In this document: one piece after another, positions 35,384 through 46,655 of the stretch
How the letters are laid out: the number at the start of each line of letters is the position of its first letter
Numbering within the stretch: position 1 is the stretch's first letter
NCBI GenBank assembly: GCA_963674745.2
Contig: CAXXDV010000001.1
Span: forward strand, 2,592,001-2,656,000
Direction of reading: 5' to 3'
DNA length: 64,000 bases
Source of the DNA: Desulfosudaceae bacterium
GTDB taxonomy: Bacteria; Desulfobacterota; Desulfobacteria; Desulfobacterales; Desulfosudaceae
Made by a program: the position numbers and the translations under genes
The notes under the pieces: generated by a model
Database searches by the model: none
The model's input: only the letters and a program-made list of their open reading frames with translations
What the model was told of the DNA's origin: nothing

Positions 35384-37462
35384 ATGACAACAAACACAGT
35401 GGTCCGGCTGGAAAAGGAAAACAACCTGGTGTTGATAAGAATAAACAACCCCCCTGTCAACGCCCTTGGTCATGCTGTCCGGCAGGGTATTTATGACGGC
35501 ATTGCCGATGCGGCCGATGATGATCAGGTTAAGGTAATTATCATTATTTGTGAAGGCCGTACTTTCTGTGCCGGAGCGGATATAAAAGAATTCGGCAAGC
35601 CCCCGCAGTCGCCGGGCCTGGGTGAAGTGCTCGAGCGCATTGACGCTTGTCCCAAACCGGTTATCGCGGCCATCCACGGCACGACGTTGGGTGGGGGGCT
35701 TGAAACCGCTTTGGCCTGCCATTTCCGGGTGGCTCTGGCTTCAACGAAAATGGGATTGCCGGAAGTCAAGCTCGGCCTGATTCCGGGTGCCGGTGGTACC
35801 CAACGGTTGCCAAGGGTAGTGGGTGTAAAAACCGCCCTGGAAATGATTACCTCCGGAAAGCAGGTCAACGCGACCGATGCCCTGGAAGCAGGACTGGTTG
35901 ATAAAATTGTTAACGAAGATCTGGAAGCCGGTGCCCGGGCCTTTGCTCAGGCAATAATTTCTGAAGATAGACCTTTGATACAGGTCAGCCGGCTTGATGA
36001 CAAGCTCCTTCCGGCCCGAGACAACCCCGGTTTGTTTGAAGCTTTCCGGCAATCCATAGCCGCTAGGACAAGAGGGTTTGAAGCACCGGAAGCCTGTGTC
36101 AAAGCGGTTGAGGCGGCCGTGAACATGCCTTTTGAGCAGGGCCTGGCTTTTGAACAGGGGTTGTTTAGAGAGCTTGTGACCGGTACCCAGTCCGCGGCCC
36201 AGCGATACTATTTTTTTGCCGAGCGTCAGACCGCCAAAATTCCCGGTATTTCCAAAGACACTGGAACGCTGGATATCCGCAAGGCGGCCGTAATCGGTGC
36301 CGGCACCATGGGCGGCGGTATTACCATGAACTTTGTCAATGCCGGTATCCCCGTCACGCTGGTGGAGACCACGCAGGAGTTTCTTGACCGGGGGTTGAAT
36401 GTGATCCGCAAAAATTATGATATTTCAGCCGCCAGGGGAAAGATGAAAACAGCGGATGTGGAACAGTGCATGGCCTTGATCACCGGTACACTTTCCATGG
36501 AAGACGTGGCCCGGGCAGATATTGTCATTGAAGCCGTGTATGAAAATATGGACCTCAAAAAAGAGATTTTTTCAAGACTCGACCATATTTGCGGTCCGGA
36601 AACAATCATGGCGACAAATACGTCTTATCTTGATGTCAATGCTATTGCCGCCAAGACCTCCCGACCGGAACATGTTCTGGGCCTGCATTTTTTCAGCCCG
36701 GCCAATGTCATGCGTCTGCTGGAAATCGTTCGAGCGGAAAAAACATCCCAAAAGGTCCTCGCCACCAGTCTTGCCCTGGCCAAAAAGATCAATAAACTGC
36801 CGGTCGTGGTGGGTGTATGTTATGGATTTGCCGGTAACCGCATGTTCGCCCAGCGCAAAAGAGAAGCTGATGCCCTGGTTTTGGAGGGTGCCCTGCCGAC
36901 ACAGGTGGACAAGGTGATGGTTGATTTCGGCTTTCCAATGGGGCCGTTTGCATTGTACGATTTGATCGGCCTGGACCTGGGCTGGCGTCGGGAGGCATCG
37001 ACCGGTTCGACGATCAAGGAAAGATTATGTGAAATGGGCCGTCTGGGCCAGAAATCCGGTTCCGGTTACTACACTTACAAACCCGGCAGCCGCACGCCGA
37101 TTGCAGACCCCGAAATAGAGCAATTGATAAAAGATTTCGCGCAGGAAAAACATATTCACCAGCGGGAAATTTCTGATCAGGAAATAATCGAAAGGTGTAT
37201 TTATCCCATCATTAATGAAGGCGCCAAAATCCTGGAAGAGGGGATTGCCGCCCGCGCCAGCGATCTGGACGTTATCTGGGTCAACGGTTATGGTTGGCCG
37301 GTTTATCGGGGAGGCCCCATGTTTTACGCTGACACCATCGGACTGGATAACACTCTTGAGACAATAAAGGGTTATCAGGCCAGGCTTGGAAACGATTGGC
37401 AGCCTGCCGCGCTGCTGGAAAAACTTGTCGCCCGGGGACAGCGGTTTCAGGATGTTGAATAA
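35384..37462 (+). CDS. Enoyl-CoA hydratase / 3-hydroxyacyl-CoA dehydrogenase (FadB/FadJ-like)
   Basis: [43 protein letters not shown]. Confidence 0.93.
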
Positions 37463-37518
37463 ACCGGATGAAAATATGATAAATTGCCCCGCATGGAGGC
37501 TTTCCGGTTGACAAGAAA

Positions 37519-37552
37519 AGACGCTGCCGCACACATGTGTGCGGCAGCGTCT
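37519..37552. terminator. Perfect 34-bp palindrome between convergent genes; probable terminator
   Basis: AGACGCTGCCGCACACA|TGTGTGCGGCAGCGTCT, followed by TTTCTT on the minus strand. Confidence 0.7.
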
Positions 37553-37574
37553 CAAGGTTTTGTGACCGGACGAA

Positions 37575-39200
37575 TTAATTCAGCGCGGGCAGGGCATCAA
37601 GCATTTTCTTGTCCGAAGATCCGTTCAACTGGAAGCCCACCACATTTCCGGTGGCCGAAAATGCGATATAGGTGGCGTTGGTAATCGGCCTTGGCGTAAA
37701 AAGCTGCTCCGCCATGGCAACCACTTTTTCATAACCGTTCAGACTGATCGTCGTTGTCGCCAACACCCCTCCGTTGTCATTATAAGCCCTCAGGGTAATG
37801 GATGCATTTGTGGCCTCCGTGTTGACAAAAGCGATGCCTGTCCAGCCGTTTTTTTCAATTTTGGGGAATACACCTGCCAGGGCACCGGCTGAACCGCTTT
37901 CGGCATAGGCTGCCAGCTGACTGTTGTCCAGGGTGCTGAACAGCTCGAAGCCGCTGAGCGCTCTGGTGGCGTCAATCTTGAACCAGGCTGTCTGTTCCGG
38001 AAGATCAAGGTTTTTGACCAGGCCGATATATTTTTCTTTGCCCCCGATGGTAAGGTTGGATGTGGCCAGAGCAGTGCCGTCCTGGCTGAAAGGTGTGATG
38101 GTAATGTCGCTGGCGGCAGCTGACGGATTATAGGCGACAATACCGGTCCACCATGATTCCTGGTTGGCCACATGGGGATAGTATATGGTTGTTGCCGTAT
38201 CGTCTGTAAGGAGCAGGCCGTCCAGCTGGGTGGTACTGCCGAAAAGCTCCAGCCCGATGATGCCGCTGGCGTTGGAGATGACGGCAGACTTGATTCCCGT
38301 CTGGGGTTGCCCGCCGAAAAGTCCGGCGATGGTAAATATTTTATGCTCGTTGGCATTAATCGTGTAATTCTTACTTCGGCCGTCACTGAAATTAATGACC
38401 AGGGCTTTCGCCTGGTTGTTTGTATTCACCAGGCTGACACCGGTCCAGAAGTTATTGTTTGAAGCGATGTGTGAAATGTAAATGTTCGACGTGTTGATTT
38501 CTTTTACAGCCGGTATGGCCGTCCTGTATGCTCCTGATTGAAAGAATTTCGTATAACCTTCAACCTCGGCAACCGTATTCGTGGAAAAAACGATGTAACC
38601 GATATTGGCGTGGTTGACAAAGTCATTGGCAACAGTGATTTGTTTGCGGCCCCGGGGCCCAAGCGTAACGTCCATGACCTCCAGGAGGACACCACTGTTG
38701 CTTTTGGCCTTCAGCGTACCGTTGAGGGTCTGATTGGTACTGGTATTGATAATCGCAATCTCCGTCTGCCAGGGCGACCGCGTGGTAACATGCGGGAAAT
38801 AAAGATAGGTGACGTCCAAGGTATCAATGAAATACGCGGTCACGGATTTACTCTGTGAGGCCGTGTTAACCGTTATCGAGTTGGTGGTGTATATAACCGT
38901 GCTGCCATTGGCCTCGACTTTCCAGTAGTCAAAGGCATACCCCGTTGCCGGGACCGCCGTCAACGTATAAGTATCGCTGCACGTATAATCCGCGGGATAG
39001 TACGGTGGAATGGGGTTACCGGAAAAATCATTAGAGGACATATCACCACCACCGGCTGGGCTGACATTCACGGTCAGCGCTGGGCCAGGTCAGGCGGCGG
39101 TTGCCGCACCGGGCATGATCAGGGTGATACAAGAGAAGGCAAGGATCAGGCAAAACAAAAGAAGGCTTTTGTGGTTTAAAAAATGCGTTTTATATATCAT
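37575..39200 (-). CDS. Putative secreted selenoprotein, paralog C (541 aa, Sec37)
   Basis: ATG 39200; MIYKTHFLNHKSLLLFCLILAFSCITLIMPGAATAA-TGA(39090-39092)-PGPALTVNVSPAGGG continues in frame into the 498-aa ORF; SECIS-like hairpin 11 nt after TGA. Confidence 0.8.
39060..39078 (-). promoter_or_regulatory. Putative bacterial SECIS element (paralog C)
   Basis: GCTGAC-CGTGAAT-GTCAGC starting 11 nt 3' of in-frame TGA. Confidence 0.75.
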
Positions 39201-39256
39201 GTTTTTTTCCTTGTTTGTTGAAAAAATTGAACATTAACGAACGGAACGCAAGCCCA

Positions 39257-41050
39257 TCAGTGTAAGGCTGGAAGCCCGTCCATCAGCAATCCGTCTGAAG
39301 AGGCGGTTAACTGAAACCCCACGATATTTTTGCTTGAGGTAAAGGCAATGTAACCGGCAAAAGAAACGTTCTGGGGTGCAAAGAAATTTTCCACCAGGTC
39401 CACTTTTTTGGCAAGACTGCCCACGGTGAAAGTGCGGGAGGCCAATGCCACGCCTTCGTTGGTGTAGGCTGTCAGCGTAATTGTAGCATCACCGGCTTCC
39501 GCGTTGACAAAGGCGATACCGGTCCATCCGTCGGCTTCGATTTTGGGGAAAATACCCTGCCTGGCCCCGGCACCGTTTCTTTCAGCGTAGGCGGCCATTT
39601 TATTGTTATCCAGGGTGCCGAAAAGTTCAAAACCGACCAGGGGCTGGGAAGCGTTGATCTTGAACCAGGCTGTCTCGGATGGCAGGTTAAGACCCCTAAC
39701 CACACCGATATATTTTTCTTTTCCGCCGAGTACAAGTGTGGATTGGGTCAGCATTGCTCCTGTTACACTATAAGGGGTAATCGTAATCTGCGTGCTCAAG
39801 TTCCATGGATTGTAGGCGACGACACCTGTCCACCAGAAGGCCATATTGGCGATATGGGGATAGTAAACGACGGAGGTGGTATCATCCGTCAGCAGAATGC
39901 CATCCAGATGCTTTAAACCGCCGAACATTTCCATGCCGAGAATGCCGTAGGCATTGGTGATCACGGCAGACTGGATATCCGGTTGTGATCCACCCATCAG
40001 GCTGGAGATCGTAAATGCTTTATGCTCTTTGGCGTCAAGGGTTATTACAGCGGTTCGTCCGTTGTTAAAGGTAATAACCGGATTTTGAGGCGCTGAATTT
40101 GTATTCAAAAGGCTGATACCGGTCCAGAACCGTTCGTTCGAGGCAATGTGCGGAATATAAATATTCTGTGTGTTGACCTCGGTTGCCGCCGGTACTGCCG
40201 CCCGGTAGAGCCCTTCCTGTGAGAACTGGGTATACCCCTGAAGGCCGGTATCGGCGGCGTAAAAGATGACGTAGCCAATGTTATCATCGGATACAAAGGG
40301 GTTGGAAAAGTCAGTTACAACATTGTACTCCAGTCGCTCGTGGGGCGCAATCGTGACAGATTTGGTCTCTATCAGTTCTCCGGAATCACTGAATGCTTTC
40401 AGTTTTCCATTGATGCTTTGGGTGGCGTTGGTATTGATTATACCGATGACCGTTTTCCAGGGGAGGTCCGCGTAGATATGGGAGAAGTAGAGCGCAGGTG
40501 TTCCCTCTACTTCATCACCGGGACCCTGGTCTGTGTCATCGCCACCATCACCGTCGTCGCCACCATCACCGTCATCACCACCATCACCGTCATCACCGTT
40601 ATCACCACCACCGGTTCCCGGAGGCGGCTGCGCGCCCGTGTTTGAAAAGTGGGCTGTCACATATTTGCTGTCTGTTTCAATGTTCACGGTAACCGGGTTC
40701 TGAGTGGTTGTGGACACGGTAATTGTTTCGCCGGTACAAGCCACAGTGATCGTTTCAATTTCCCAGTAAACAAAAGAATACCCGTCTGCCGCATTTGCTT
40801 CCGCTCTTAACGTGTATTCGGAACTGGTTGAAAAATTTTCCGGATATGTGTAAGGTGGGCGACTGAAACTATAGCCGAAATCATCGGAATAGATATCACC
40901 GCCGCCGGCCGGGCTGACATCCACGGTCAGCTTGGGACCGCCTCAAGCCAGTGCCTTTCCGGGGGTTGCCACCACAATGATGGTTAACGCCCAAATCGTG
41001 CAAGCGACAAAAAAATTAAGACTATGGAAGAAGATATTATTTCGTCCCAT
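39257..41050 (-). CDS. Putative secreted selenoprotein, paralog B (597 aa, Sec36) with Gly/Asp linker
   Basis: AAGGAGG RBS, ATG 41050; MGRNNIFFHSLNFFVACTIWALTIIVVATPGKALA-TGA(40943-40945)-GGPKLTVDVSPAGGG in frame with the 555-aa ORF. Confidence 0.82.
40535..40606 (-). repeat. 18-bp coding tandem repeat (GDGGDD-like x4)
   Basis: gtcatcgccaccatcacc-type units encoding GDNGDDGDGGDDGDGGDDGDGGDD. Confidence 0.85.
40913..40931 (-). promoter_or_regulatory. Putative bacterial SECIS element (paralog B)
   Basis: GCTGAC-CGTGGAT-GTCAGC starting 11 nt 3' of in-frame TGA. Confidence 0.75.
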
Positions 41051-41088
41051 ATTGTTCCTCCTTATTCGGAAGTTTCGTCAACGAACAA

Positions 41089-42744
41089 TCAATCAAGGGC
41101 CGGCAGTCCGTCTAACATCTTGTCGTCGGAAGATCCGTTCAGCTGAAAACCCACGACGTTTCTGTCCGAACGAAAGCCGATGTAACTGGCAATCGAGATG
41201 TTGCTGTTGGAAAAGATGCTTTCCGCCATCTTGACCACTTTGGCATGGCTGTTGACTCTGAGTGTCGCCGTAGCCACGTTCATCCCGTCGTTCCGGTAAG
41301 CGGTCAGGGTCACATTGGCGGGGCTTACTTCTGTATTAACAAAAGCAATGCCCGTCCAACCGTCCTTTTCAAGCTTGGCAAAAGCACCTTGCTTACTTCC
41401 GGCACCGCTTTGTTCTGCATAAGCCGCCAGTTTCTGGTTATCCAGGGTGCTGAACAGCTCGAATCCGACCATCGGCGAAGTGGCGGTCAACCTGAACCAG
41501 GCCGTCTGATCGGGAAGGTTAAGGTTTCTGACCAGGCCGATATATTTATCATTTGGCCCGATACTGATGGTTGAACCGGTCAGCGCGTTTCCCAACTCGG
41601 AGTAAGGCGTGACGGTTATCGTGTTGGTCGTGTTCGACGGGTTATAACCGACGATACCGGTCCACCATGATCGGGTGTCGGCCACGTGGGGATAATATAT
41701 GGTAATCACCGTGTCGTCCGAAAGTACAATGCCATCCAACTGCGTATTTGTGCCGAAAAGTTCCAGGCCGACAATACCGCTGGCATTGGTAATCCTGGCC
41801 GATTTGATGTTCGGTTGCGCTTCACCTCCGAACAGGCTGGCGATGGTAAACGCCTTATGCTCGTAAGGGTTAAGCGTGACATTAGCCTGGCGGCCGTCAT
41901 TAAACAGAATCGTCAGTTTCTTGGTCACGGAGCCCGAGTTGACCAGGCTTATTCCGGTCCAGAAATTGTCGTTGGAGGCAATATGCGGCACATAAATGTC
42001 GCCCGTGTTCGCCTCTTTTATGGCGGGAACGGCGGTTCTGAATTTTCCTTCCTGGTAAAATTTCGTGTAACCAACGGCACCTTCTCTATCTCCATGAAAG
42101 GTAATGTGCCCGATTTCTTCCGGGTTCGAAAACCAGTCGCCAATGTTCAGCTCTCTCCGACCATGGGGATAAAGGGTGATCGATTTGTTATCTATTACCT
42201 GGCCGCTGTCAGTGTAGGCCCTCAACGTGCCGAGCATGTTCTGATCAGCATTGGTGTTGATAATGCATATTTCCGTTTCCCATGGTGATTTGGTGGACAC
42301 GTGTGGAAAAAACAGGGATGGCGCTTGGCTGAGCTCAAGAAAATAGGCCGTAACAGATTTTCCCTCTTCTAAAATACTGACGCTAATGGGATTCTGGGTG
42401 GAAAAATCGGTTGATGATACGGTATCACCCTGGCAGGTACTCGTTATGGTGTCGACTTGCCAGTAGGAGAACACATATCCTGTTTCCGAGTTGGGCATTG
42501 CCATCAGGGTATAGCTGGTTGCACTTGAAAAATTTTCCGGATACGTGCTTGGCATATTGTTATACGTATCAAATTGATTTGACATAATATCTCCGCCGCC
42601 TGCCGGGCTGACATCCACGGTCAGCTTTGGGCCGCCTCAGGCAAAAGCGTTACCCGGCGTCATAATAGCGGCGCAAACCATAACCGGCAGCGCAATTAAA
42701 AAGAAAATTGTCAGACATTTTTTAAGCATACGCTTGTGAATCAT
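41089..42744 (-). CDS. Putative secreted selenoprotein, paralog A (551 aa, Sec36)
   Basis: GGGAGA RBS, ATG 42744; MIHKRMLKKCLTIFFLIALPVMVCAAIMTPGNAFA-TGA(42637-42639)-GGPKLTVDVSPAGGG in frame with the 509-aa ORF. Confidence 0.82.
42607..42625 (-). promoter_or_regulatory. Putative bacterial SECIS element (paralog A)
   Basis: GCTGAC-CGTGGAT-GTCAGC starting 11 nt 3' of in-frame TGA. Confidence 0.75.
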
Positions 42745-42925
42745 TTTTAAGTCTCCCTAAATTAGTGCAATTTTTTACTGCTCTGGTCCGTACAGAAAGC
42801 ACTGCTGAGTGGACAGGTTTTCTAAGAACTTTTCCAGACCTTCAGACACCCGTTATATAATTTTAACGATTATATAATCGGATGATGATATTTCCCAGCT
42901 TTTTGTCAAAAAAAATAACGCTGTT

Positions 42926-42954
42926 ATTATGGGTTTTTTTTTAAGCCCTGTCAA
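42926..42954 (-). promoter_or_regulatory. Sigma70-like promoter for the three-paralog operon
   Basis: Minus strand TTGACA (42954-42949)-17 nt-CATAAT (42931-42926). Confidence 0.55.
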
Positions 42955-43042
42955 TATTTCATATGTATTTCGTAGAGAATTTTCAATTTACTGATATCAT
43001 GAAGGATAATTTATTTTGAAGCCATTATCGGGGTTATCGTCT

Positions 43043-43867
43043 TCAGGTAACATCAATTTTTTGGTTCAGGCGTTCGATGGTGGCGTTGATGTAGTCGTTA
43101 TCCTCAATGTCAGCCACTATCGCCTGGTTCGGACATATAACCGCACACCGGCCGCATCCCCGGCAATTGTCATTAATGCACGCGACCCCCTCTTCCATGC
43201 CGATGCCGTCAAATATGCAGACACCTTCTGCGGTACAGGCGCCGCATCCCACGCAATCTTCCGTGACAAGCATTTTCAGGCCGGGCATGCGGCTATAATG
43301 ATTCCCCAGTAACGGGTGGCTGCCGACCAACCCCCGTGTAATACAACAGCAGGGGCAACACATACAGATCGTGAACAGCTTATCGCCCGGACCGATGCTC
43401 AGCCAGACCGTGTCGAGCTTGCTTTTGCCCACTGAAAAAACCAGCCCTTGCGCAGAGGCATTGCGGACATGCGCTATCGCCTCTTCTACCGTTGCTTCAC
43501 GACCGAGGTCAGGATGAATATCCCGTGCCGGTTCACCCAGAAAGATGCAGCCGATTTCATGGGGGTAAGTCTCACAGGGCATGCATTCCCGGCAAATGCA
43601 CTTGTGCATGATAAAACGGTAGCTTGCCTTTTCGATAAAATGTTCCGCCACCTTTGAGGGGAGAATGGTGTCCGGCCCTTTGTCAATCTCCTGATTGATG
43701 GTGATCACATTGTCATTCGGCAGGCAATAAAGCTCATCTCCCTCAAAATATTTTTTTTCAATCATCCTGGCGAAAATTTTCATCCTGGCAGGATTGTATC
43801 TGGGAAATTTTTTAGGAAAGAATTTTTTGTAAAAGGCGACCTTTTTCAGCTGTTTTGCTTTATCCAC
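43043..43867 (-). CDS. 4Fe-4S ferredoxin-domain protein
   Basis: CICR..C, ICMCCPCCC, CVGCGAC..VC, CRGCGRCAVICP. Confidence 0.85.
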   Translation of the reverse strand: MDKAKQLKKVAFYKKFFPKKFPRYNPARMKIFARMIEKKYFEGDELYCLPNDNVITINQEIDKGPDTILPSKVAEHFIEKASYRFIMHKCICRECMPCETYPHEIGCIFLGEPARDIHPDLGREATVEEAIAHVRNASAQGLVFSVGKSKLDTVWLSIGPGDKLFTICMCCPCCCITRGLVGSHPLLGNHYSRMPGLKMLVTEDCVGCGACTAEGVCIFDGIGMEEGVACINDNCRGCGRCAVICPNQAIVADIEDNDYINATIERLNQKIDVT

Positions 43868-43939: not shown

Positions 43940-44707
43940 TTATTGGACAGGTTTTGAAAAAGCCTTTTTGGGAAGGTCGAGGTCAACCTGGACCTCTACA
44001 GGGATTGGGTCCGGAACACGGGCGTTGACCATGACATTTTCCGGAAGGCTGACCTGAAACACGTCATCAACCGGCAGGCTGACATGGGTCGTCAGGTCAA
44101 GCGGCAAAGTGAAGACCTTGTTCACATGAACGGTTACATCCTGTTTTATGCGCACGTCAGCCAGCGTCTTAATGTGAACTGTTCGTTTGAACGGGATCGT
44201 GATGTTAATCGGAAAGATTCCGCTTACCGGAAGACTGACATTTTTCAGCCCCCAGAGATTGGTCTGGACCATAACGTCTTTCAATGGGATTTCGGCTTCA
44301 ATGGGAACTTCGGTTTCGACGAATATTTCCTGGTCTATGGGGATTGAAATGGTTACGTCCAGCGGCACCGTAAAGTCGCTGTCAACAGGCACTTCTACGT
44401 CCTGCTGAAAGGGGATGTCGGCTTCCAGGACTTTGGAAAGCCTGACGGGGATGGGTCCTTTTGCCTCCACTGCCACCGGTGACCATGACGGCATTCTGGC
44501 CTGAACGGTTTTATTCAGCTGGTAGGAGGCAATGGGGTCCGGTGCTTTGTGGTAAAGATATCGGACAATGCTGAAAGATACCAGCATCAGCAGAACAAAG
44601 ATCAGGCCGAGCACGATCATTATGCCGGCGGCCCAGGCCAGAATCAATCTGGGACGCAACCTCAAAGTATAGAACTCGTCCGGAGTGCTTTTCGAGGGCT
44701 GATCCAT
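43940..44707 (-). CDS. Membrane-anchored hypothetical protein with V/I-P-V/I repeats
   Basis: Likely ATG 44707 (MDQPSK); one TM helix then Val/Ile/Pro-rich beta pattern. Confidence 0.65.
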   Translation of the reverse strand: MDQPSKSTPDEFYTLRLRPRLILAWAAGIMIVLGLIFVLLMLVSFSIVRYLYHKAPDPIASYQLNKTVQARMPSWSPVAVEAKGPIPVRLSKVLEADIPFQQDVEVPVDSDFTVPLDVTISIPIDQEIFVETEVPIEAEIPLKDVMVQTNLWGLKNVSLPVSGIFPINITIPFKRTVHIKTLADVRIKQDVTVHVNKVFTLPLDLTTHVSLPVDDVFQVSLPENVMVNARVPDPIPVEVQVDLDLPKKAFSKPVQ

Positions 44708-44753
44708 TATTTTTATATATCTGTACAAAAACAGCTTGTCAATGATTTCAAGG

Positions 44754-46655
44754 TTATTGAGCAGCGCCCCTGGCCATGAACGGCGGAATGGGGATGTCCA
44801 TGGCATAGGCCACCGCCCGCAACACTTCCGCCTCACTGACAGCGACCCGGCCGTCAAACAGGACACACTGGCAGCAGGCATCAAAAACCGTTTTTTTGAC
44901 CCCGGGTGAAGCCTGTGACAGTCGTTCCAGCGCCGCATGCAGCGTTTTGACCGAAACTTTGGCCGATATTGTAGTGGACTCAGCGCCTCTGATCGGCAAG
45001 GCAGTTATCGCCGCCTGAAAAGCCTTGTCCGCGGTTTCTTTATCATTTCCGGTCCGGGCCAGTATGGATATCAGGGCAATGATGTCTTCTGTCAGGGGGG
45101 TGATATTCTTATACAACGTTCTGGGTGAATTGTTGACAAAGACGGCCTCCAGCCGGTGCCGGATGATCTCTTTGACTGAGAATTCAAAAAGCGTAATCTT
45201 TTTGTCGGCCTCAATAAGGGCCTGAAGATAATTTTTGAAATCGTCGAATTGTTCCGGTGACATCTGCCTCAGCGTAGGGATGGCAAGATCAAGGACCGGC
45301 AGCCTCAGTTCAACCGGAAGATCTTTTACGTAAAAGTCCACAATTTCCAGCTGTCGAACAAATGAAGACGGGGCGGTCTCTTTGAGTATGTTGTATTGAT
45401 TTTCTTTTTCGGCCGGGTTTTTATCCAGAAGAAGGGCGCAGACCACGACCGATGCCCCGAGCATATCCCGGGTTTCATGCTTGATGGGTTCCGGAATCGC
45501 GTCCAGGATGACAGCACTGTAGGCGACATTTTCAGGGGTTATGTTACCCACCGTTTCCATGGCGCTGTCGGGGTTGATGGAAACGTCTCCGCCAGCCTGA
45601 AAAGAAGCGTAAGGCTGCGGTCCACTGATACCTGAAATCCCGGGCGTTGCCGTTTCCTTCCCCGCAGCAAGGGTAAAGTCCCCCGAAAATCCCGGTTCGA
45701 TCCTCTGGATTCTTTCGGCCAGTGGCGGATGGGTGGCGAAAAAAGAGTTGATGGCCTTGCCGAAAAACATATGACAGGCTTCTCCGGCGGCCGGGGAATT
45801 GATTTCTGAACCGTTTGACAGGCCGCCTATTTTTTTCAGCGCCTGGGCAATTCCCGTACTCCGGGTGAATTGAACCGCCGAGGCATCGGCCAGGTATTCC
45901 CGCTGGCGTGAAACAGCGCTTTGAATGAGCCGGCCGACCAGCACACCGCCATAACCGATAACCAGCAAAAGCAGGGCGACAATGGCGATCTGGCCGCTTC
46001 CCTTGCTGCTCCTCCTTGAGCTATAGGACCGCCTGGAAGAACCCCGGAGCGCTATCCTGCCGATTGTGGCAATCGCCATAATACCGCCCAGCAGGCCGAT
46101 TAACCGGATGTTCAATCGCATGTCGCCGTTTAAGATATGGCTGAATTCATGGGCGATGACACCCTGCAGCTCTTCCCGCGTCAGCCGCTGGCAGCACCCC
46201 CTGGTAACGCCGATGACCGCGTCATTGGGCGAAAATCCGGCCGCAAAGGCATTGATGCCCTCTTCATTTTCCAGCAGGTATACAGGCGGAACCGGTATGC
46301 CCGAGGCGATAGCCATTTCTTCCACCACGTTCAGGAGTTTTCGCTGATCCGGATCTTTTGTCGCCGTATTGACAAGGTCTCCGCCCAGTCCTTCGGCGAT
46401 ATAACTGCCGCCTTTTGAAAGTGCCGTCATTTTGATGATGCTGCCAACGCAGATAACGGCAAATGTGATGCCTGCGATGGTCAGAAACAGGTCAGGGTCG
46501 TAAAAGGTCAGTCCGGGAACAGAAGAATTGTACATGACCACCGCCATGATCGCGGCATAAACGCCCAGAACCACAAGAAGCACGGCGACGATAAAGAGAA
46601 AAACCAGCATACCCGTTTTGGATCTGGCTTTATCTTGCTGCTGAAAGAAATCCAT
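44754..46655 (-). CDS. M48 (HtpX-like) zinc metallopeptidase with C-terminal extension
   Basis: INAFAAG, AHEFSH, SRQREYLADA, THPPLAERI; follows lemA. Confidence 0.9.
   Translation of the reverse strand: MDFFQQQDKARSKTGMLVFLFIVAVLLVVLGVYAAIMAVVMYNSSVPGLTFYDPDLFLTIAGITFAVICVGSIIKMTALSKGGSYIAEGLGGDLVNTATKDPDQRKLLNVVEEMAIASGIPVPPVYLLENEEGINAFAAGFSPNDAVIGVTRGCCQRLTREELQGVIAHEFSHILNGDMRLNIRLIGLLGGIMAIATIGRIALRGSSRRSYSSRRSSKGSGQIAIVALLLLVIGYGGVLVGRLIQSAVSRQREYLADASAVQFTRSTGIAQALKKIGGLSNGSEINSPAAGEACHMFFGKAINSFFATHPPLAERIQRIEPGFSGDFTLAAGKETATPGISGISGPQPYASFQAGGDVSINPDSAMETVGNITPENVAYSAVILDAIPEPIKHETRDMLGASVVVCALLLDKNPAEKENQYNILKETAPSSFVRQLEIVDFYVKDLPVELRLPVLDLAIPTLRQMSPEQFDDFKNYLQALIEADKKITLFEFSVKEIIRHRLEAVFVNNSPRTLYKNITPLTEDIIALISILARTGNDKETADKAFQAAITALPIRGAESTTISAKVSVKTLHAALERLSQASPGVKKTVFDACCQCVLFDGRVAVSEAEVLRAVAYAMDIPIPPFMARGAAQ

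What the first reader, a model, noticed from the sequence alone, without database searches (positions are those of the whole stretch)
37575..42744. Operon of three paralogous secreted proteins with a conserved in-frame TGA right after the signal peptide: candidate new selenoprotein family
Seen: each ORF called from an internal GTG is preceded in frame by an ATG and a 35-36 aa signal peptide, then one TGA. The junctions are PGNAFA*GGPKLTVDVSPAGGG (42637), PGKALA*GGPKLTVDVSPAGGG (40943) and PGAATAA*PGPALTVNVSPAGGG (39090). The signal peptides are strongly diverged, yet the TGA is kept at the homologous position in all three and is never TAA/TAG. The downstream 500-550 codons are intact. The extended genes have RBSs (clear for A and B) and pack with 38- and 56-nt gaps. 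Known: UGA is recoded as Sec when followed by a SECIS, and anaerobic deltaproteobacteria commonly use Sec. Inference: 551/597/541-aa exported selenoproteins. I recognise no selenoprotein family with this architecture, and they lack thioredoxin-like or molybdoenzyme features.
Basis: partly seen in the sequence, partly recalled or inferred. Interest (0 to 1): 0.95.

Follow-up and report, generated by a model that had tools for sequence, protein, structure and literature searches.

The report
Exported proteins capped by selenocysteine
Three neighbouring genes encode exported surface-type proteins in which a stop-like TGA right after the signal peptide is almost certainly read as selenocysteine, and they belong to a widespread selenoprotein family that gene callers cut short and that I could not find described.

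Summary
Genes A, B and C (minus strand, 37575-42744) each have an ATG, a 35-36 aa signal peptide and one in-frame TGA, followed by a beta-sandwich domain of the InlB B-repeat type.

- **Sec machinery:** the genome has tRNA-Sec, selA, selB and selD.
- **Hairpin:** a 19-nt hairpin, GCUGAC-CGUGNNN-GUCAGC, starts 11 nt after each TGA. It fits the published bacterial SECIS model and encodes the first strand, LTVxVS.
- **Family:** I found 49 distinct members, and all 49 have TGA. They lie in 16 of 401 genomes sampled from the order and in named Dehalococcoidales and Syntrophaceae MAGs. All keep the hairpin, with fixed synonymous sites.
- **Cys-forms:** eight protein clusters have Cys in place of TGA. 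The two whose DNA I read lack the hairpin.
- **Partner Cys:** 47 of 49 Sec-forms have exactly one other Cys in the domain. By contrast, 35 of 45 ordinary B-repeat domains have a Cys pair. I infer from this that Sec pairs with the single Cys in a selenosulfide.
- **Position of Sec:** by the -3/-1 rule, Sec is residue +1 or +2 of the mature protein.

Relatives combine this module with rhodanese and PKD domains and a C-terminal CFI-box. A 2026 list of 119 selenoprotein families and NCBIfam both lack this family. Selenium incorporation and function are untested.

The parts
42926..42954 (-). sigma-70-like promoter candidate upstream of gene A (TTGACA-17-CATAAT)
   Evidence: 11 of 12 hexamer matches. 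This is a consensus match only; 8 sites were found in the region against 6.8 expected from shuffles.
41089..42744 (-). Gene A, 551 aa with U36: signal peptide (42640-42744), Sec codon, B-repeat-type domain (about 42334-42636, Cys104), and a four-beta-sandwich C-terminal module (about 41092-42318)
42637..42639 (-). In-frame TGA of gene A, read as selenocysteine (U36)
42607..42625 (-). SECIS-like hairpin of gene A, GCUGAC-CGUGGAU-GUCAGC, starting 11 nt after the UGA; it encodes (K)LTVDVS
39257..41050 (-). Gene B, 597 aa with U36 and Cys105. Same plan as A, plus a Gly/Asp-rich insert (about 40496-40636) between the N-domain and the C-module
40943..40945 (-). In-frame TGA of gene B (U36)
40913..40931 (-). 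SECIS-like hairpin of gene B, identical to that of A
37575..39200 (-). Gene C, 541 aa with U37 and Cys74. Its N-domain scores over the Pfam cut-off for Flg_new_2
   Evidence: (26.5 bits against a cut-off of 23.6).
39090..39092 (-). In-frame TGA of gene C (U37)
39060..39078 (-). SECIS-like hairpin of gene C, GCUGAC-CGUGAAU-GUCAGC
37518..37553 (-). Intrinsic-terminator-like hairpin (16-bp stem followed by a T run) 22 nt after the stop of gene C; it closes the three-gene unit
   Evidence: The same palindrome was also picked up.

Best explanation
**What it is.** A, B and C are one transcription unit encoding three paralogous exported selenoproteins.

**How it is decoded.**
- The ribosome starts at the upstream ATG.
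- SelB carrying Sec-tRNA(Sec) reads the single UGA after the signal peptide as selenocysteine.
- SelB is directed by a 6-bp, 7-nt-loop hairpin that begins 11 nt downstream. That hairpin is at the same time the coding sequence of the first beta-strand (LTVxVS) of a B-repeat-type beta-sandwich domain.

**What happens to the protein.**
- It is exported through the Sec translocon.
- It is cut by signal peptidase I at a small-x-small site, so that Sec is residue +1 or +2 of the mature protein.
- There Sec most likely pairs with the one Cys of the domain as a selenosulfide or redox couple. This couple takes the place of the CPxxC Cys pair of ordinary B-repeat domains. It would form a reactive cap on a surface protein whose body is four tandem beta-sandwich domains.

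**Shown by computation:** the ORF structure, the Sec machinery, the conservation and fit of the hairpin, Sec/Cys pairs, the taxonomic spread and the one-Cys rule.

**Inferred:** actual Sec insertion, the cleavage site, the Se-S bond, and any chemistry such as redox, polysulfide or metal handling.
For: **Sec machinery in this genome.** tRNA-Sec scores 75.1 bits, selB 369.8 bits, selA 607.9 bits and selD 368.6 bits. All are over their cut-offs, and selD itself holds one TGA.

**Fit to the published SECIS model.** The review PMC13188914 (section 5 and the legend of Fig 2, read) gives these criteria: a loop of 3-9 nt, a stem of 4-16 bp, a G in the first two loop positions (usually G[G|U]), and 16-37 nt from the UGA to the loop.
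- Here the loop is CGUGNNN (7 nt) and the stem is 6 bp.
- The distance from UGA to loop is 17 nt in 31 of 49 members, 20 nt in 9, 23 nt in 8 and 26 nt in 1.

**The hairpin is kept at the RNA level.**
- Among the 30 members found by protein search, 179 of 180 stem cells pair.
- Two stem pairs show compensatory GC>UA and CG>UA changes in L046 and L070.
- Slid control structures pair in only 12.8-53.3% of cells.
- Thr is ACC in 30 of 30, Val is GTG in 30 of 30 and the second Val is GTC in 30 of 30. Genome usage of these codons is 54%, 29% and 33%.
- The next codon, Pro, uses all four synonymous codons.
- Eight LTVxV motifs not preceded by a stop use mixed codons, and none forms the hairpin.

**TGA is universal in the family.**
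- All 49 distinct members have TGA; none has TAA or TAG.
- Sixteen of 401 genomes sampled from the order carry them, in 8 families.
- Sixteen of the 80 loci read from a hairpin-pattern scan are members, and 6 more came from its remaining loci. These include 3 Dehalococcoidales MAGs and 1 Syntrophaceae MAG.

**Cys-forms exist.**
- A Cys aligns with U in a tandem paralog in this genome and in G002.
- Eight protein clusters in the protein collection are Cys-forms.
- The two Cys-forms whose DNA I read lack the hairpin.

**Export.**
- 48 of 49 members have an uncharged run of at least 12 residues before U.
- 47 of 49 have a small-x-small site ending at U-1 or U-2.
- Only 2 of 49 are lipobox-like.
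- Relatives carry extracellular domain types and a C-terminal CFI-box sorting motif (NF041763: 17.2 and 18.2 bits against a cut-off of 15.9).

**The one-Cys rule.** 47 of 49 Sec-forms have exactly one Cys in the domain. Five of these Cys lie next to Sec as UC, UxC or UxxC. Of 45 non-Sec B-repeat domains from the same order, 35 have exactly two Cys.

**Precedent for export of a selenoprotein.** MccSep of Geobacter has a signal peptide whose cleavage was shown by Edman sequencing (bioRxiv 10.1101/2025.11.18.688581; passages read).
Against: - There is no direct evidence that selenium is incorporated.
- Covariation in the stem comes from two related sequences of one genus, so it is probably a single event. 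The rest of the signal is conservation, which relatedness inflates.
- The bare hairpin folds at -7.0 kcal/mol (-3.2 for L046). That is weaker than the -7.5 criterion of the model, unless flanking pairs count.
- Whole 68-nt folds are no more stable than shuffles, with z-scores of 0.40, -0.68 and -0.55.
- No Rfam family matched.
- Cys-forms are few and all have one architecture (PKD repeats plus CFI-box).
- selA was not found in one carrier genome, G386, which is 83% complete. Because 388 of 401 genomes in the order have selA, its presence hardly discriminates.
- Nineteen of the 49 members were retrieved by the hairpin pattern itself, so they say nothing about hairpin conservation.
- Against the Se-S sub-claim: L157 has no Cys, L042 has three, and two Cys-form clusters have a single Cys. 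I could not measure distances in the models.
- The cleavage site rests on a simple -3/-1 rule and not on a trained predictor.
Confidence: 0.85

Rival explanations
1. The TGA is a true stop. A hydrophobic leader peptide of 35-36 aa is made, and the main protein starts at the GUG exposed in the hairpin loop, as gene callers annotate it. This would be termination-reinitiation or an independent start.
For: The GUG is invariant in the loop in all 49 members. Public gene calls start there or close by: P0007-P0020 begin MDVSP, VDVSP or MNVSP.
Against: - The upstream ORF is in frame in 49 of 49 members, and the linker varies only in whole codons, from 4 to 7 aa.
- The linker is conserved as protein: G follows U in 35 of 49.
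- No Shine-Dalgarno sequence precedes the GUG, whereas the ATGs have one.
- Cys-forms are continuous ORFs of signal peptide, Cys and domain.
- Products starting at the GUG would lack a signal peptide, although they consist of extracellular domain types and C-terminal sorting motifs.
- The stop is never TAA or TAG, although 65% of long ORFs here end in those codons.
- G and U of the GUG are fixed by any Val codon anyway.
Confidence: 0.06
2. The UGA is read through without Sec, either by near-cognate insertion of Trp, Cys or Arg, or because the organism reads TGA as a sense codon.
For: The ORF is open and conserved across the TGA.
Against: - TGA serves as an ordinary stop in this genome: it ends 35% of long ORFs, and genes A and B themselves end in TGA.
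- There is exactly one internal TGA per gene, at one position.
- A hairpin fitting the SECIS model follows it.
- The full Sec machinery is present.
- Homologues have Cys at the site, not Trp or Gly.
Confidence: 0.04
3. Sec is the lipid-modified +1 residue of a lipoprotein. The signal peptide would be cut by signal peptidase II, and Sec would be diacylglyceryl-modified in place of Cys.
For: A Sec or Cys directly follows a signal peptide ending in small residues. Two of 49 members have a lipobox-like [LVI][ASTVI][GAS] before U.
Against: - 47 of 49 members lack a lipobox.
- Position -3 is often A, K, E or D.
- Sec sits one residue after the best small-x-small site in many members.
- The one-Cys rule points to a pairing role for Sec.
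Confidence: 0.03
4. The genes are pseudogenes, or the TGA codons are assembly errors.
For: None beyond the presence of an internal stop.
Against: - The same codon is at the same place in 49 distinct genes from many assemblies, with intact frames of 500-1600 codons downstream.
- Paralogs are 45-63% identical, yet every one keeps the TGA.
Confidence: 0.01

Closest known systems
Bacterial selenoproteins decoded by SelB and an in-ORF SECIS (consensus model as given in review PMC13188914, section 5)
   Same: In-frame UGA, a stem-loop just downstream with GU in the apical loop, 17-26 nt from UGA to loop, Cys-containing homologues, and truncated annotation in databases.
   Different: - Sec lies at the extreme N-terminus of the mature exported protein instead of in a thioredoxin-like or metal-cofactor active site.
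- The fold is a non-enzymatic beta-sandwich.
- The SECIS is nearly invariant in sequence across two phyla and doubles as a structural beta-strand.
- None of the 119 families in that review's Table 1 (section 7, parts 1-2 read) has this domain or architecture.
MccSep, the multiheme cytochrome c selenoprotein of Geobacter (bioRxiv 10.1101/2025.11.18.688581; passages read)
   Same: A selenoprotein of Desulfobacterota with a cleaved N-terminal signal peptide. It was mis-annotated as two genes at the UGA.
   Different: In MccSep Sec is residue 325, inside a heme enzyme. Here Sec directly follows the signal peptide, and no cofactor motif is present.
Divergent InlB B-repeat domain, Pfam PF18998 (Flg_new_2)
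   Same: Gene C scores 26.5 bits and many relatives up to 42.8 bits, over the cut-off of 23.6. The strand pattern is the same: LTVxVSP ... YTLTA ... GYxFxxW ... VTAxF.
   Different: Ordinary copies in the same order carry a CPxxC Cys pair (35 of 45). The Sec-forms lack that pair and instead have U before strand 1 plus one Cys elsewhere (47 of 49). Genes A and B fall below the Pfam cut-off.
Proteins with the CFI-box putative sorting motif, NCBIfam NF041763
   Same: Many relatives that carry the Sec module, and all Cys-forms seen, end in a Gly/Ser-rich stretch followed by GCF[IV]xxx.
   Different: The three window genes do not. They end in ...LDGLPAL[D/H/N] after the four-beta-sandwich module. 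A search of the paper library for 'CFI-box' found nothing.
Selenoprotein families recognised from truncated gene calls by Haft and co-workers (bioRxiv 10.1101/2022.07.06.499078; passages read)
   Same: The same kind of evidence: truncation at a conserved Cys/Sec column, 100% TGA, and at least ten examples.
   Different: Those families (SaoL, SaoB, SaoP, HgcA and others) are unrelated in sequence. I could not read the 2025 follow-up (Haft and Tolstoy, mSystems). Its families as listed in the review do not match.

Membership tests
Bacterial selenoprotein (SelB/SECIS-dependent UGA recoding) | A single in-frame UGA with protein-level conservation on both sides | tested here: met
Bacterial selenoprotein (SelB/SECIS-dependent UGA recoding) | The genome encodes tRNA-Sec, SelA, SelB and SelD | tested here: met
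   All four score over their curated cut-offs.
Bacterial selenoprotein (SelB/SECIS-dependent UGA recoding) | A stem-loop downstream of the UGA that fits the bSECIS model: loop 3-9 nt, stem 4-16 bp, G in loop position 1-2, 16-37 nt spacing, MFE <= -7.5 kcal/mol | tested here: inconclusive
   Loop, stem, GU and spacing are met in 49 of 49 members. The bare hairpin folds at -7.0 kcal/mol, so the energy criterion is met only if flanking pairs are counted. The criteria come from PMC13188914.
Bacterial selenoprotein (SelB/SECIS-dependent UGA recoding) | Homologues with Cys aligned to the UGA | tested here: met
   8 Cys-form clusters, including one in this genome.
Bacterial selenoprotein (SelB/SECIS-dependent UGA recoding) | TGA-containing homologues in other Sec-using organisms; never TAA or TAG | tested here: met
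   49 of 49 have TGA. 15 of the 16 carrier genomes in the order sample have selA.
Bacterial selenoprotein (SelB/SECIS-dependent UGA recoding) | Selenium physically present in the protein (75Se labelling or mass spectrometry) | not testable with these tools
   No proteomic data were available, and no RNA run was listed.
Any of the selenoprotein families already described or modelled | A match to a curated model or a listed family | tested here: not met
   - NCBIfam release 20.0 gives no family for A or C, and only a 13.4-bit chance hit for B.
- Table 1 of PMC13188914 has no such entry.
- The family motifs are absent from the deep-Sep supplement and from the BSepDB supplement as held, which may have been cut.
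Pfam PF18998 Flg_new_2 (divergent InlB B-repeat) | HMM score over the gathering cut-off of 23.6 bits | tested here: met
   Gene C scores 26.5 bits, and relatives score up to 42.8 bits. Gene B scores 14.0 bits and gene A has no hit, so these two are assigned only through their homology to C.
Bacterial lipoprotein | A lipobox [LVI][ASTVI][GAS] immediately before the +1 Cys | tested here: not met
   2 of 49. A, B and C have AFA, ALA and TAA.
NCBIfam NF041763 CFI-box sorting-motif proteins | A C-terminal Gly-rich stretch followed by a CFI motif | tested here: not met
   A, B and C end in LDGLPAL[D/H/N]. The motif is present in relatives.
Pfam PF18986 DUF5719 (C-terminal module) | HMM score over the cut-off of 26.2 bits | tested here: not met
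   Scores are 16.5, 11.9 and 15.3 bits. Foldseek finds only generic tandem beta-sandwich arrays, with TM about 0.1.

The most novel reading that the evidence does not exclude
A widespread class of cell-surface selenoproteins exists in sulfate-reducing Desulfobacterota and in Dehalococcoidia. In this class, signal-peptidase cleavage exposes selenocysteine as the first or second residue of the mature protein.

This N-terminal Sec forms a selenosulfide or redox couple with a single migrating Cys. The couple has replaced the structural disulfide of the B-repeat fold. The result is an extracytoplasmic reactive selenium cap that was recruited again and again onto rhodanese-, PKD- and CFI-box-bearing surface proteins. 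Its job would be to capture or transfer sulfur, polysulfide or soft metals outside the cell.

Its SECIS is a near-universal 19-nt cassette that also encodes the first beta-strand. That allows the whole signal peptide-Sec-SECIS-strand unit to move between genes, and between phyla, as one portable module.
Probability: 0.35. Interest if true: 0.85.

Novelty: new variant of a known kind. Interest (0 to 1): 0.72.

Why it matters
**Where Sec sits.** Nearly all known bacterial selenoproteins hold Sec in a cytoplasmic or periplasmic redox or metal active site. Here Sec would sit at the very N-terminus of exported, adhesin-like beta-sandwich proteins. It occurs in dozens of genes, across at least 8 families of one order and in a second phylum.

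**What follows if this is real:**
- It adds a sizeable and systematically mis-annotated family to the selenoproteomes of Desulfobacterota and Dehalococcoidia. Public gene calls start inside the SECIS loop.
- It offers a compact, sequence-defined SECIS (19 nt, usually 11 nt from the UGA) that is compatible with a beta-strand. That is of practical interest for engineering Sec into secreted proteins.
- It points to extracellular selenium chemistry, possibly tied to the rhodanese domains that follow the module in 8 of the 16 relatives whose full length I read.
- The replacement of a Cys pair by a Sec plus Cys pair in one fold is a clean natural experiment on selenosulfide versus disulfide.

Tried and rejected
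- **Rfam:** no SECIS or other credible family in 37000-43200.
- **Whole-region folding against shuffles:** not significant. The signal lies in the conserved short hairpin, not in bulk stability.
- **The search for related loci with alignment A2:** the tool found no stretch of the alignment conserved enough to search with. I used a DNA pattern scan instead. Sixty-four of the 80 loci read from it were chance matches in unrelated ORFs, mostly in high-GC genomes.
- **Gene neighbourhood:**
  - In the window: sigma factor, TPR protein, FadB-like protein, Fer4 protein, M48 peptidase.
  - Around the paralogs and around two minimal 149-150-aa members: RND efflux, BrkB, HSP20, tyrA, GNAT, prfC.
  - No conserved partner or maturation gene was seen.
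- **Dedicated SelB:** a second SelB-like gene (G000:C3:1795409-1797292, 239.9 bits) suggested a dedicated factor. A second full-length SelB-like hit occurs in 2 of 6 carrier genomes looked at (G000, G222) and in 1 of 5 non-carriers (G061), so there is no link.
- **selA across the order:** present in 388 of 401 genomes, so it does not discriminate.
- **RNA evidence:** no RNA holder listed.
- **Structure:**
  - The full-length model (pLDDT 89.9) gave only generic macroglobulin- or Ig-like arrays in the PDB.
  - The N-domain model (pLDDT 82.8) gave no match at E <= 0.001.
  - Profile searches of PDB sequences found nothing.
  - Coordinates are not returned, so I could not measure the Sec-Cys distance.
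- **The protein-atlas search:** it would not take the recoded reading. I did not pursue it.
- **Earlier findings of this scan:** nothing to show.
- **Literature:**
  - No paper holds 'selenocysteine' together with 'InlB B-repeat'.
  - No paper holds 'CFI-box'.
  - The search for 'N-terminal selenocysteine' and 'signal peptidase' gave nothing relevant.
  - Haft and Tolstoy 2025 (mSystems) is not held, so I cannot exclude that it mentions this family beyond what the review lists.
- **Lipoprotein reading:** rejected.

Full report
**Observation.** On the minus strand of 37575-42744 lie three tandem genes.

| Gene | ATG | Internal TGA | Length |
|---|---|---|---|
| A | 42744 | 42637-42639 | 551 aa |
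| B | 41050 | 40943-40945 | 597 aa |
| C | 39200 | 39090-39092 | 541 aa |

- Each gene opens with a 35-36 aa stretch made of a basic N-terminus, a long uncharged run and a small-x-small end. The single TGA follows, and then GGPKLTVDVSPAGGG (PGPALTVNVSPAGGG in C).
- Shine-Dalgarno-like sequences precede the ATGs.
- The extended genes are 38 and 56 nt apart.
- A promoter-like site lies at 42926-42954, and a terminator with a 16-bp stem at 37518-37553 brackets the unit.

**Is TGA a Sec codon here?**
- The genome (5.55 Mb, 3 contigs, 50.5% G+C) has tRNA-Sec (75.1 bits), selB (369.8), selA (607.9) and selD (368.6, itself with one TGA). All score over their curated cut-offs.
- TGA is otherwise an ordinary stop. 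It ends 582 of 1661 long ORFs (35%), and it ends genes A and B themselves.
- Exactly 11 nt after each internal TGA begins GCUGAC-CGUG(G/A)AU-GUCAGC, a 6-bp stem with a 7-nt loop.
- The consensus bacterial SECIS model is given in the review PMC13188914 (section 5 and the legend of Fig 2, read). It asks for a loop of 3-9 nt, a stem of 4-16 bp, a G (usually GG or GU) in the first two loop positions, 16-37 nt between UGA and loop, and an MFE of -7.5 kcal/mol or lower.
- The hairpin meets every geometric criterion. Its own energy is -7.0 kcal/mol, which is marginal unless flanking pairs are counted.
- In this genome the motif with a TGA 11 nt upstream occurs only five times, all in this family.

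**Relatives.**
- A six-frame search of this genome and of its relatives found two further TGA-members here (G000:C1:1646226 and C3:1352659) and five in a congener, G002.
- A profile of the N-terminal 145 residues (A2) was run over 401 genomes of the order. It found 20 more hits that cover the signal peptide and hold one TGA. They lie in 14 genomes of 7 further families.
- Eight hits cover a signal peptide without a stop. In all eight the domain starts directly after the signal peptide, with neither Cys nor stop at that place.
- I then scanned the species-representative genome collection for the hairpin with the CCC that follows it.
  - Of the 80 loci I read through, 16 are family members. Each has a signal peptide and a TGA 4-6 codons upstream. 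The other 64 are chance matches in unrelated ORFs.
  - Six more members turned up among the remaining loci.
  - Record titles place members in Desulfobacteraceae, Desulfococcaceae, Desulfosalsimonadaceae, Syntrophaceae and three Dehalococcoidales MAGs.
- In total there are 49 distinct members: 49 with TGA and none with TAA or TAG.

**RNA-level constraint.** To avoid circularity I used only the 30 members found by protein search.
- 179 of 180 stem cells pair. Four pairs never vary. Two pairs change on both sides (GC>UA and CG>UA) in L046 and L070, which are two genomes of one genus. Slid controls pair in 12.8-53.3% of cells.
- The codons under the hairpin are frozen: Thr ACC in 30 of 30, Val GTG in 30 of 30, Val GTC in 30 of 30, Leu CTG in 28 and TTG in 2. 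Genome usage of ACC, GTG, GTC and CTG is 54%, 29%, 33% and 52%. The adjacent Pro codon uses all four synonymous forms.
- Eight LTVxV motifs in the same loci that are not preceded by a stop use mixed codons, and none forms the hairpin.
- The two Cys-forms whose DNA I read lack the hairpin.
- The distance from UGA to stem is 11 nt in 31 of 49 members, 14 nt in 9, 17 nt in 8 and 20 nt in 1. It is always a whole number of codons.
- The covariation amounts to one event. The weight of this evidence is synonymous-site conservation, which shared ancestry inflates. Even so, it spans paralogs only 36-51% identical in this N-terminal region, and two phyla.

**Cys homologues.**
- Directly downstream of the TGA-member at G000:C1:1646226 lies a paralog with ...PGHAEAACQCELHVRVNPAGSG. 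G002 has the same tandem pair.
- MAFFT puts these Cys in the U column.
- The protein collection holds 8 such clusters (P0126-P0133). They carry CQC, a single C, C...C or C...FTC, and all have PKD repeats and a CFI-box.
- Public gene calls for Sec-forms start at or near the GUG in the hairpin loop, as MDVSP, VDVSP or MNVSP. These calls are truncated.

**Export and position of Sec.**
- By simple rules, 48 of 49 members have an uncharged run of at least 12 residues.
- 47 of 49 have small residues at -3 and -1 that place signal peptidase I cleavage directly before U or one residue earlier.
- Only 2 of 49 resemble a lipobox.
- No trained predictor was available, so the cleavage site is an inference.
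- Export of a selenoprotein with a cleaved signal peptide has precedent in MccSep of Geobacter (10.1101/2025.11.18.688581; passages read).

**The protein.**
- The N-domain is of the divergent InlB B-repeat type, PF18998. Gene C scores 26.5 bits against a cut-off of 23.6, relatives score up to 42.8 bits, and A and B fall below the cut-off.
- AlphaFold2 models are confident. The full-length model of A has pLDDT 89.9 and pTM 0.85 and is all-beta, with residues 1-34 below 50. The N-domain model has pLDDT 82.8.
- Foldseek finds only generic tandem beta-sandwich arrays for the whole protein: A2ML1, TEP1, complement C5 and adhesins, with TM about 0.1. It finds nothing significant for the N-domain.
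- The 410-aa C-terminal module is very common. At least 592 proteins match at E <= 1e-5 among the candidates scored. Their heads are of many kinds: BACON, peptidases, LamG, rhodanese, FN3 and Kelch. I read this module as a carrier or anchor and the N-domain as one of many heads.

**A rule that hints at mechanism.**
- In 47 of 49 Sec-forms the N-domain holds exactly one Cys. L042 has three and L157 has none.
- The place of that Cys migrates among a few sites:
  - next to Sec (UC in L039 and L144, UxC in L174, UxxC in L046 and L070);
  - about U+28 to U+45 ('FTCS', as in gene C);
  - an inserted hairpin at U+67 to U+69 (genes A and B);
  - before the last strand ('TLTCDQT').
- Ordinary B-repeat domains of the same order have exactly two Cys in 35 of 45 cases, as a CPxxC loop.
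- An even count of chalcogen residues is thus kept. I infer a Sec-Cys selenosulfide or redox pair. This is the least secure step of the argument: two Cys-form clusters have a lone Cys, and I could not measure distances.

**Architectures.** I read the full length of 16 members from other genera.
- 8 carry a rhodanese domain right after the Sec module.
- 12 carry K319L-like PKD repeats.
- 4 carry SdrD-B domains.
- 3 carry a choice-of-anchor U domain (NF041766).
- 8 end in a Gly/Ser-rich stretch followed by GCF[IV]xxx.
- Two minimal proteins of 149 and 150 aa consist only of signal peptide, U, B-repeat, acidic linker and a CFI-box (NF041763: 17.2 and 18.2 bits against a cut-off of 15.9).
- The Sec module is therefore a portable cap of surface proteins. 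The rhodanese link suggests sulfur or selenium chemistry but does not show it.

**Comparison with what is known.**
- Table 1 of the 2026 review lists 119 prokaryotic selenoprotein families (section 7, parts 1-2 read). None has this domain or a Sec directly after a signal peptide.
- NCBIfam release 20.0 has no model that hits the N-domain.
- The new families in the deep-Sep supplement are different proteins.
- The BSepDB supplement as held, which may have been cut, lacks the family motifs.
- Haft and Tolstoy 2025 could not be read.
- I therefore rate this a new selenoprotein family of unusual design, not a new kind of system.

**Verdict.**
- Observation: confirmed.
- Interpretation: supported. 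Probability about 0.85 that these are true selenoproteins.
- Mature N-terminal position of Sec: likely.
- Se-S pairing: plausible, about 0.4-0.5.
- Biochemical role: open.

Noticed in passing
window 41092-42318, 39260-40490 and 37578-38770 (C-terminal parts of A, B and C): The module of about 410 aa, made of four beta-sandwiches with the repeated motif PH[VI]...W.T(G)I..[VI]N, is shared by at least 592 database proteins from Thermodesulfobacteriota MAGs. Their N-terminal heads are of many kinds: BACON, M10/S8/C1 peptidases, LamG, rhodanese, FN3 and Kelch. It looks like a common carrier or anchor module with no known function. Pfam DUF5719 matches it only weakly.
   Followed up: partly
G000:C1:1646226-1648589 (outside the window; loci L014, L015, L211): A Sec-form and a Cys-form of the same 339-aa protein (signal peptide, U or C, B-repeat, two PKD repeats, CFI-box) sit in tandem. 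The same pair exists in the congener G002 (C9:14649 and C9:15712).
   Followed up: yes
Relatives L198, L199, L201, L202, L205, L208; G000 paralogs L014, L015, L018: The C-terminal CFI-box (Gly/Ser-rich stretch, then GCF[IV] and 4-6 further residues, with no transmembrane segment) co-occurs with the N-terminal Sec or Cys module. NCBIfam calls it a putative sorting motif. In L200 and L210 a similar GGGGCFV is followed by a transmembrane segment and a basic tail. No processing enzyme was identified.
   Followed up: partly
Relatives L196, L198 (two genes), L199, L200, L201, L203, L210: Rhodanese-like domains directly follow the Sec-capped B-repeat. Many have the motif GHI.CA.N, and in several an Asp stands where the usual active-site Cys would be. 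Extracytoplasmic rhodanese arrays of up to 4 copies alternate with SdrD-B and PKD domains.
   Followed up: no
G000:C3:1795409-1797292: A second full-length SelB-like gene (239.9 bits, just under the cut-off of 242.25) lies elsewhere in the genome from the canonical selB. Similar second copies occur in G222 and G061. Their presence is not linked to this family.
   Followed up: partly
window 40496-40636 (gene B): A Gly/Asp-rich low-complexity insert (GGGDNGDDGDGGDDGDGGDD...) lies between the N-domain and the C-module of B only. Similar acidic linkers precede the CFI-box in the minimal relatives.
   Followed up: no
G000:C1:326061-326981: selD of this genome is itself a selenoprotein (one in-frame TGA, ...VAGAG*ASK...). 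Its downstream hairpin is a different one (CCAGG-GGA-CCUGG, 15 nt after the UGA), so the organism's SelB accepts dissimilar SECIS sequences.
   Followed up: partly
window 43043-43867 (minus strand): The ORF upstream of the operon (274 aa) has only a weak 4Fe-4S ferredoxin-type match at its C-terminus. The next ORF (43940-44938) has no Pfam match. Neither was studied.
   Followed up: no
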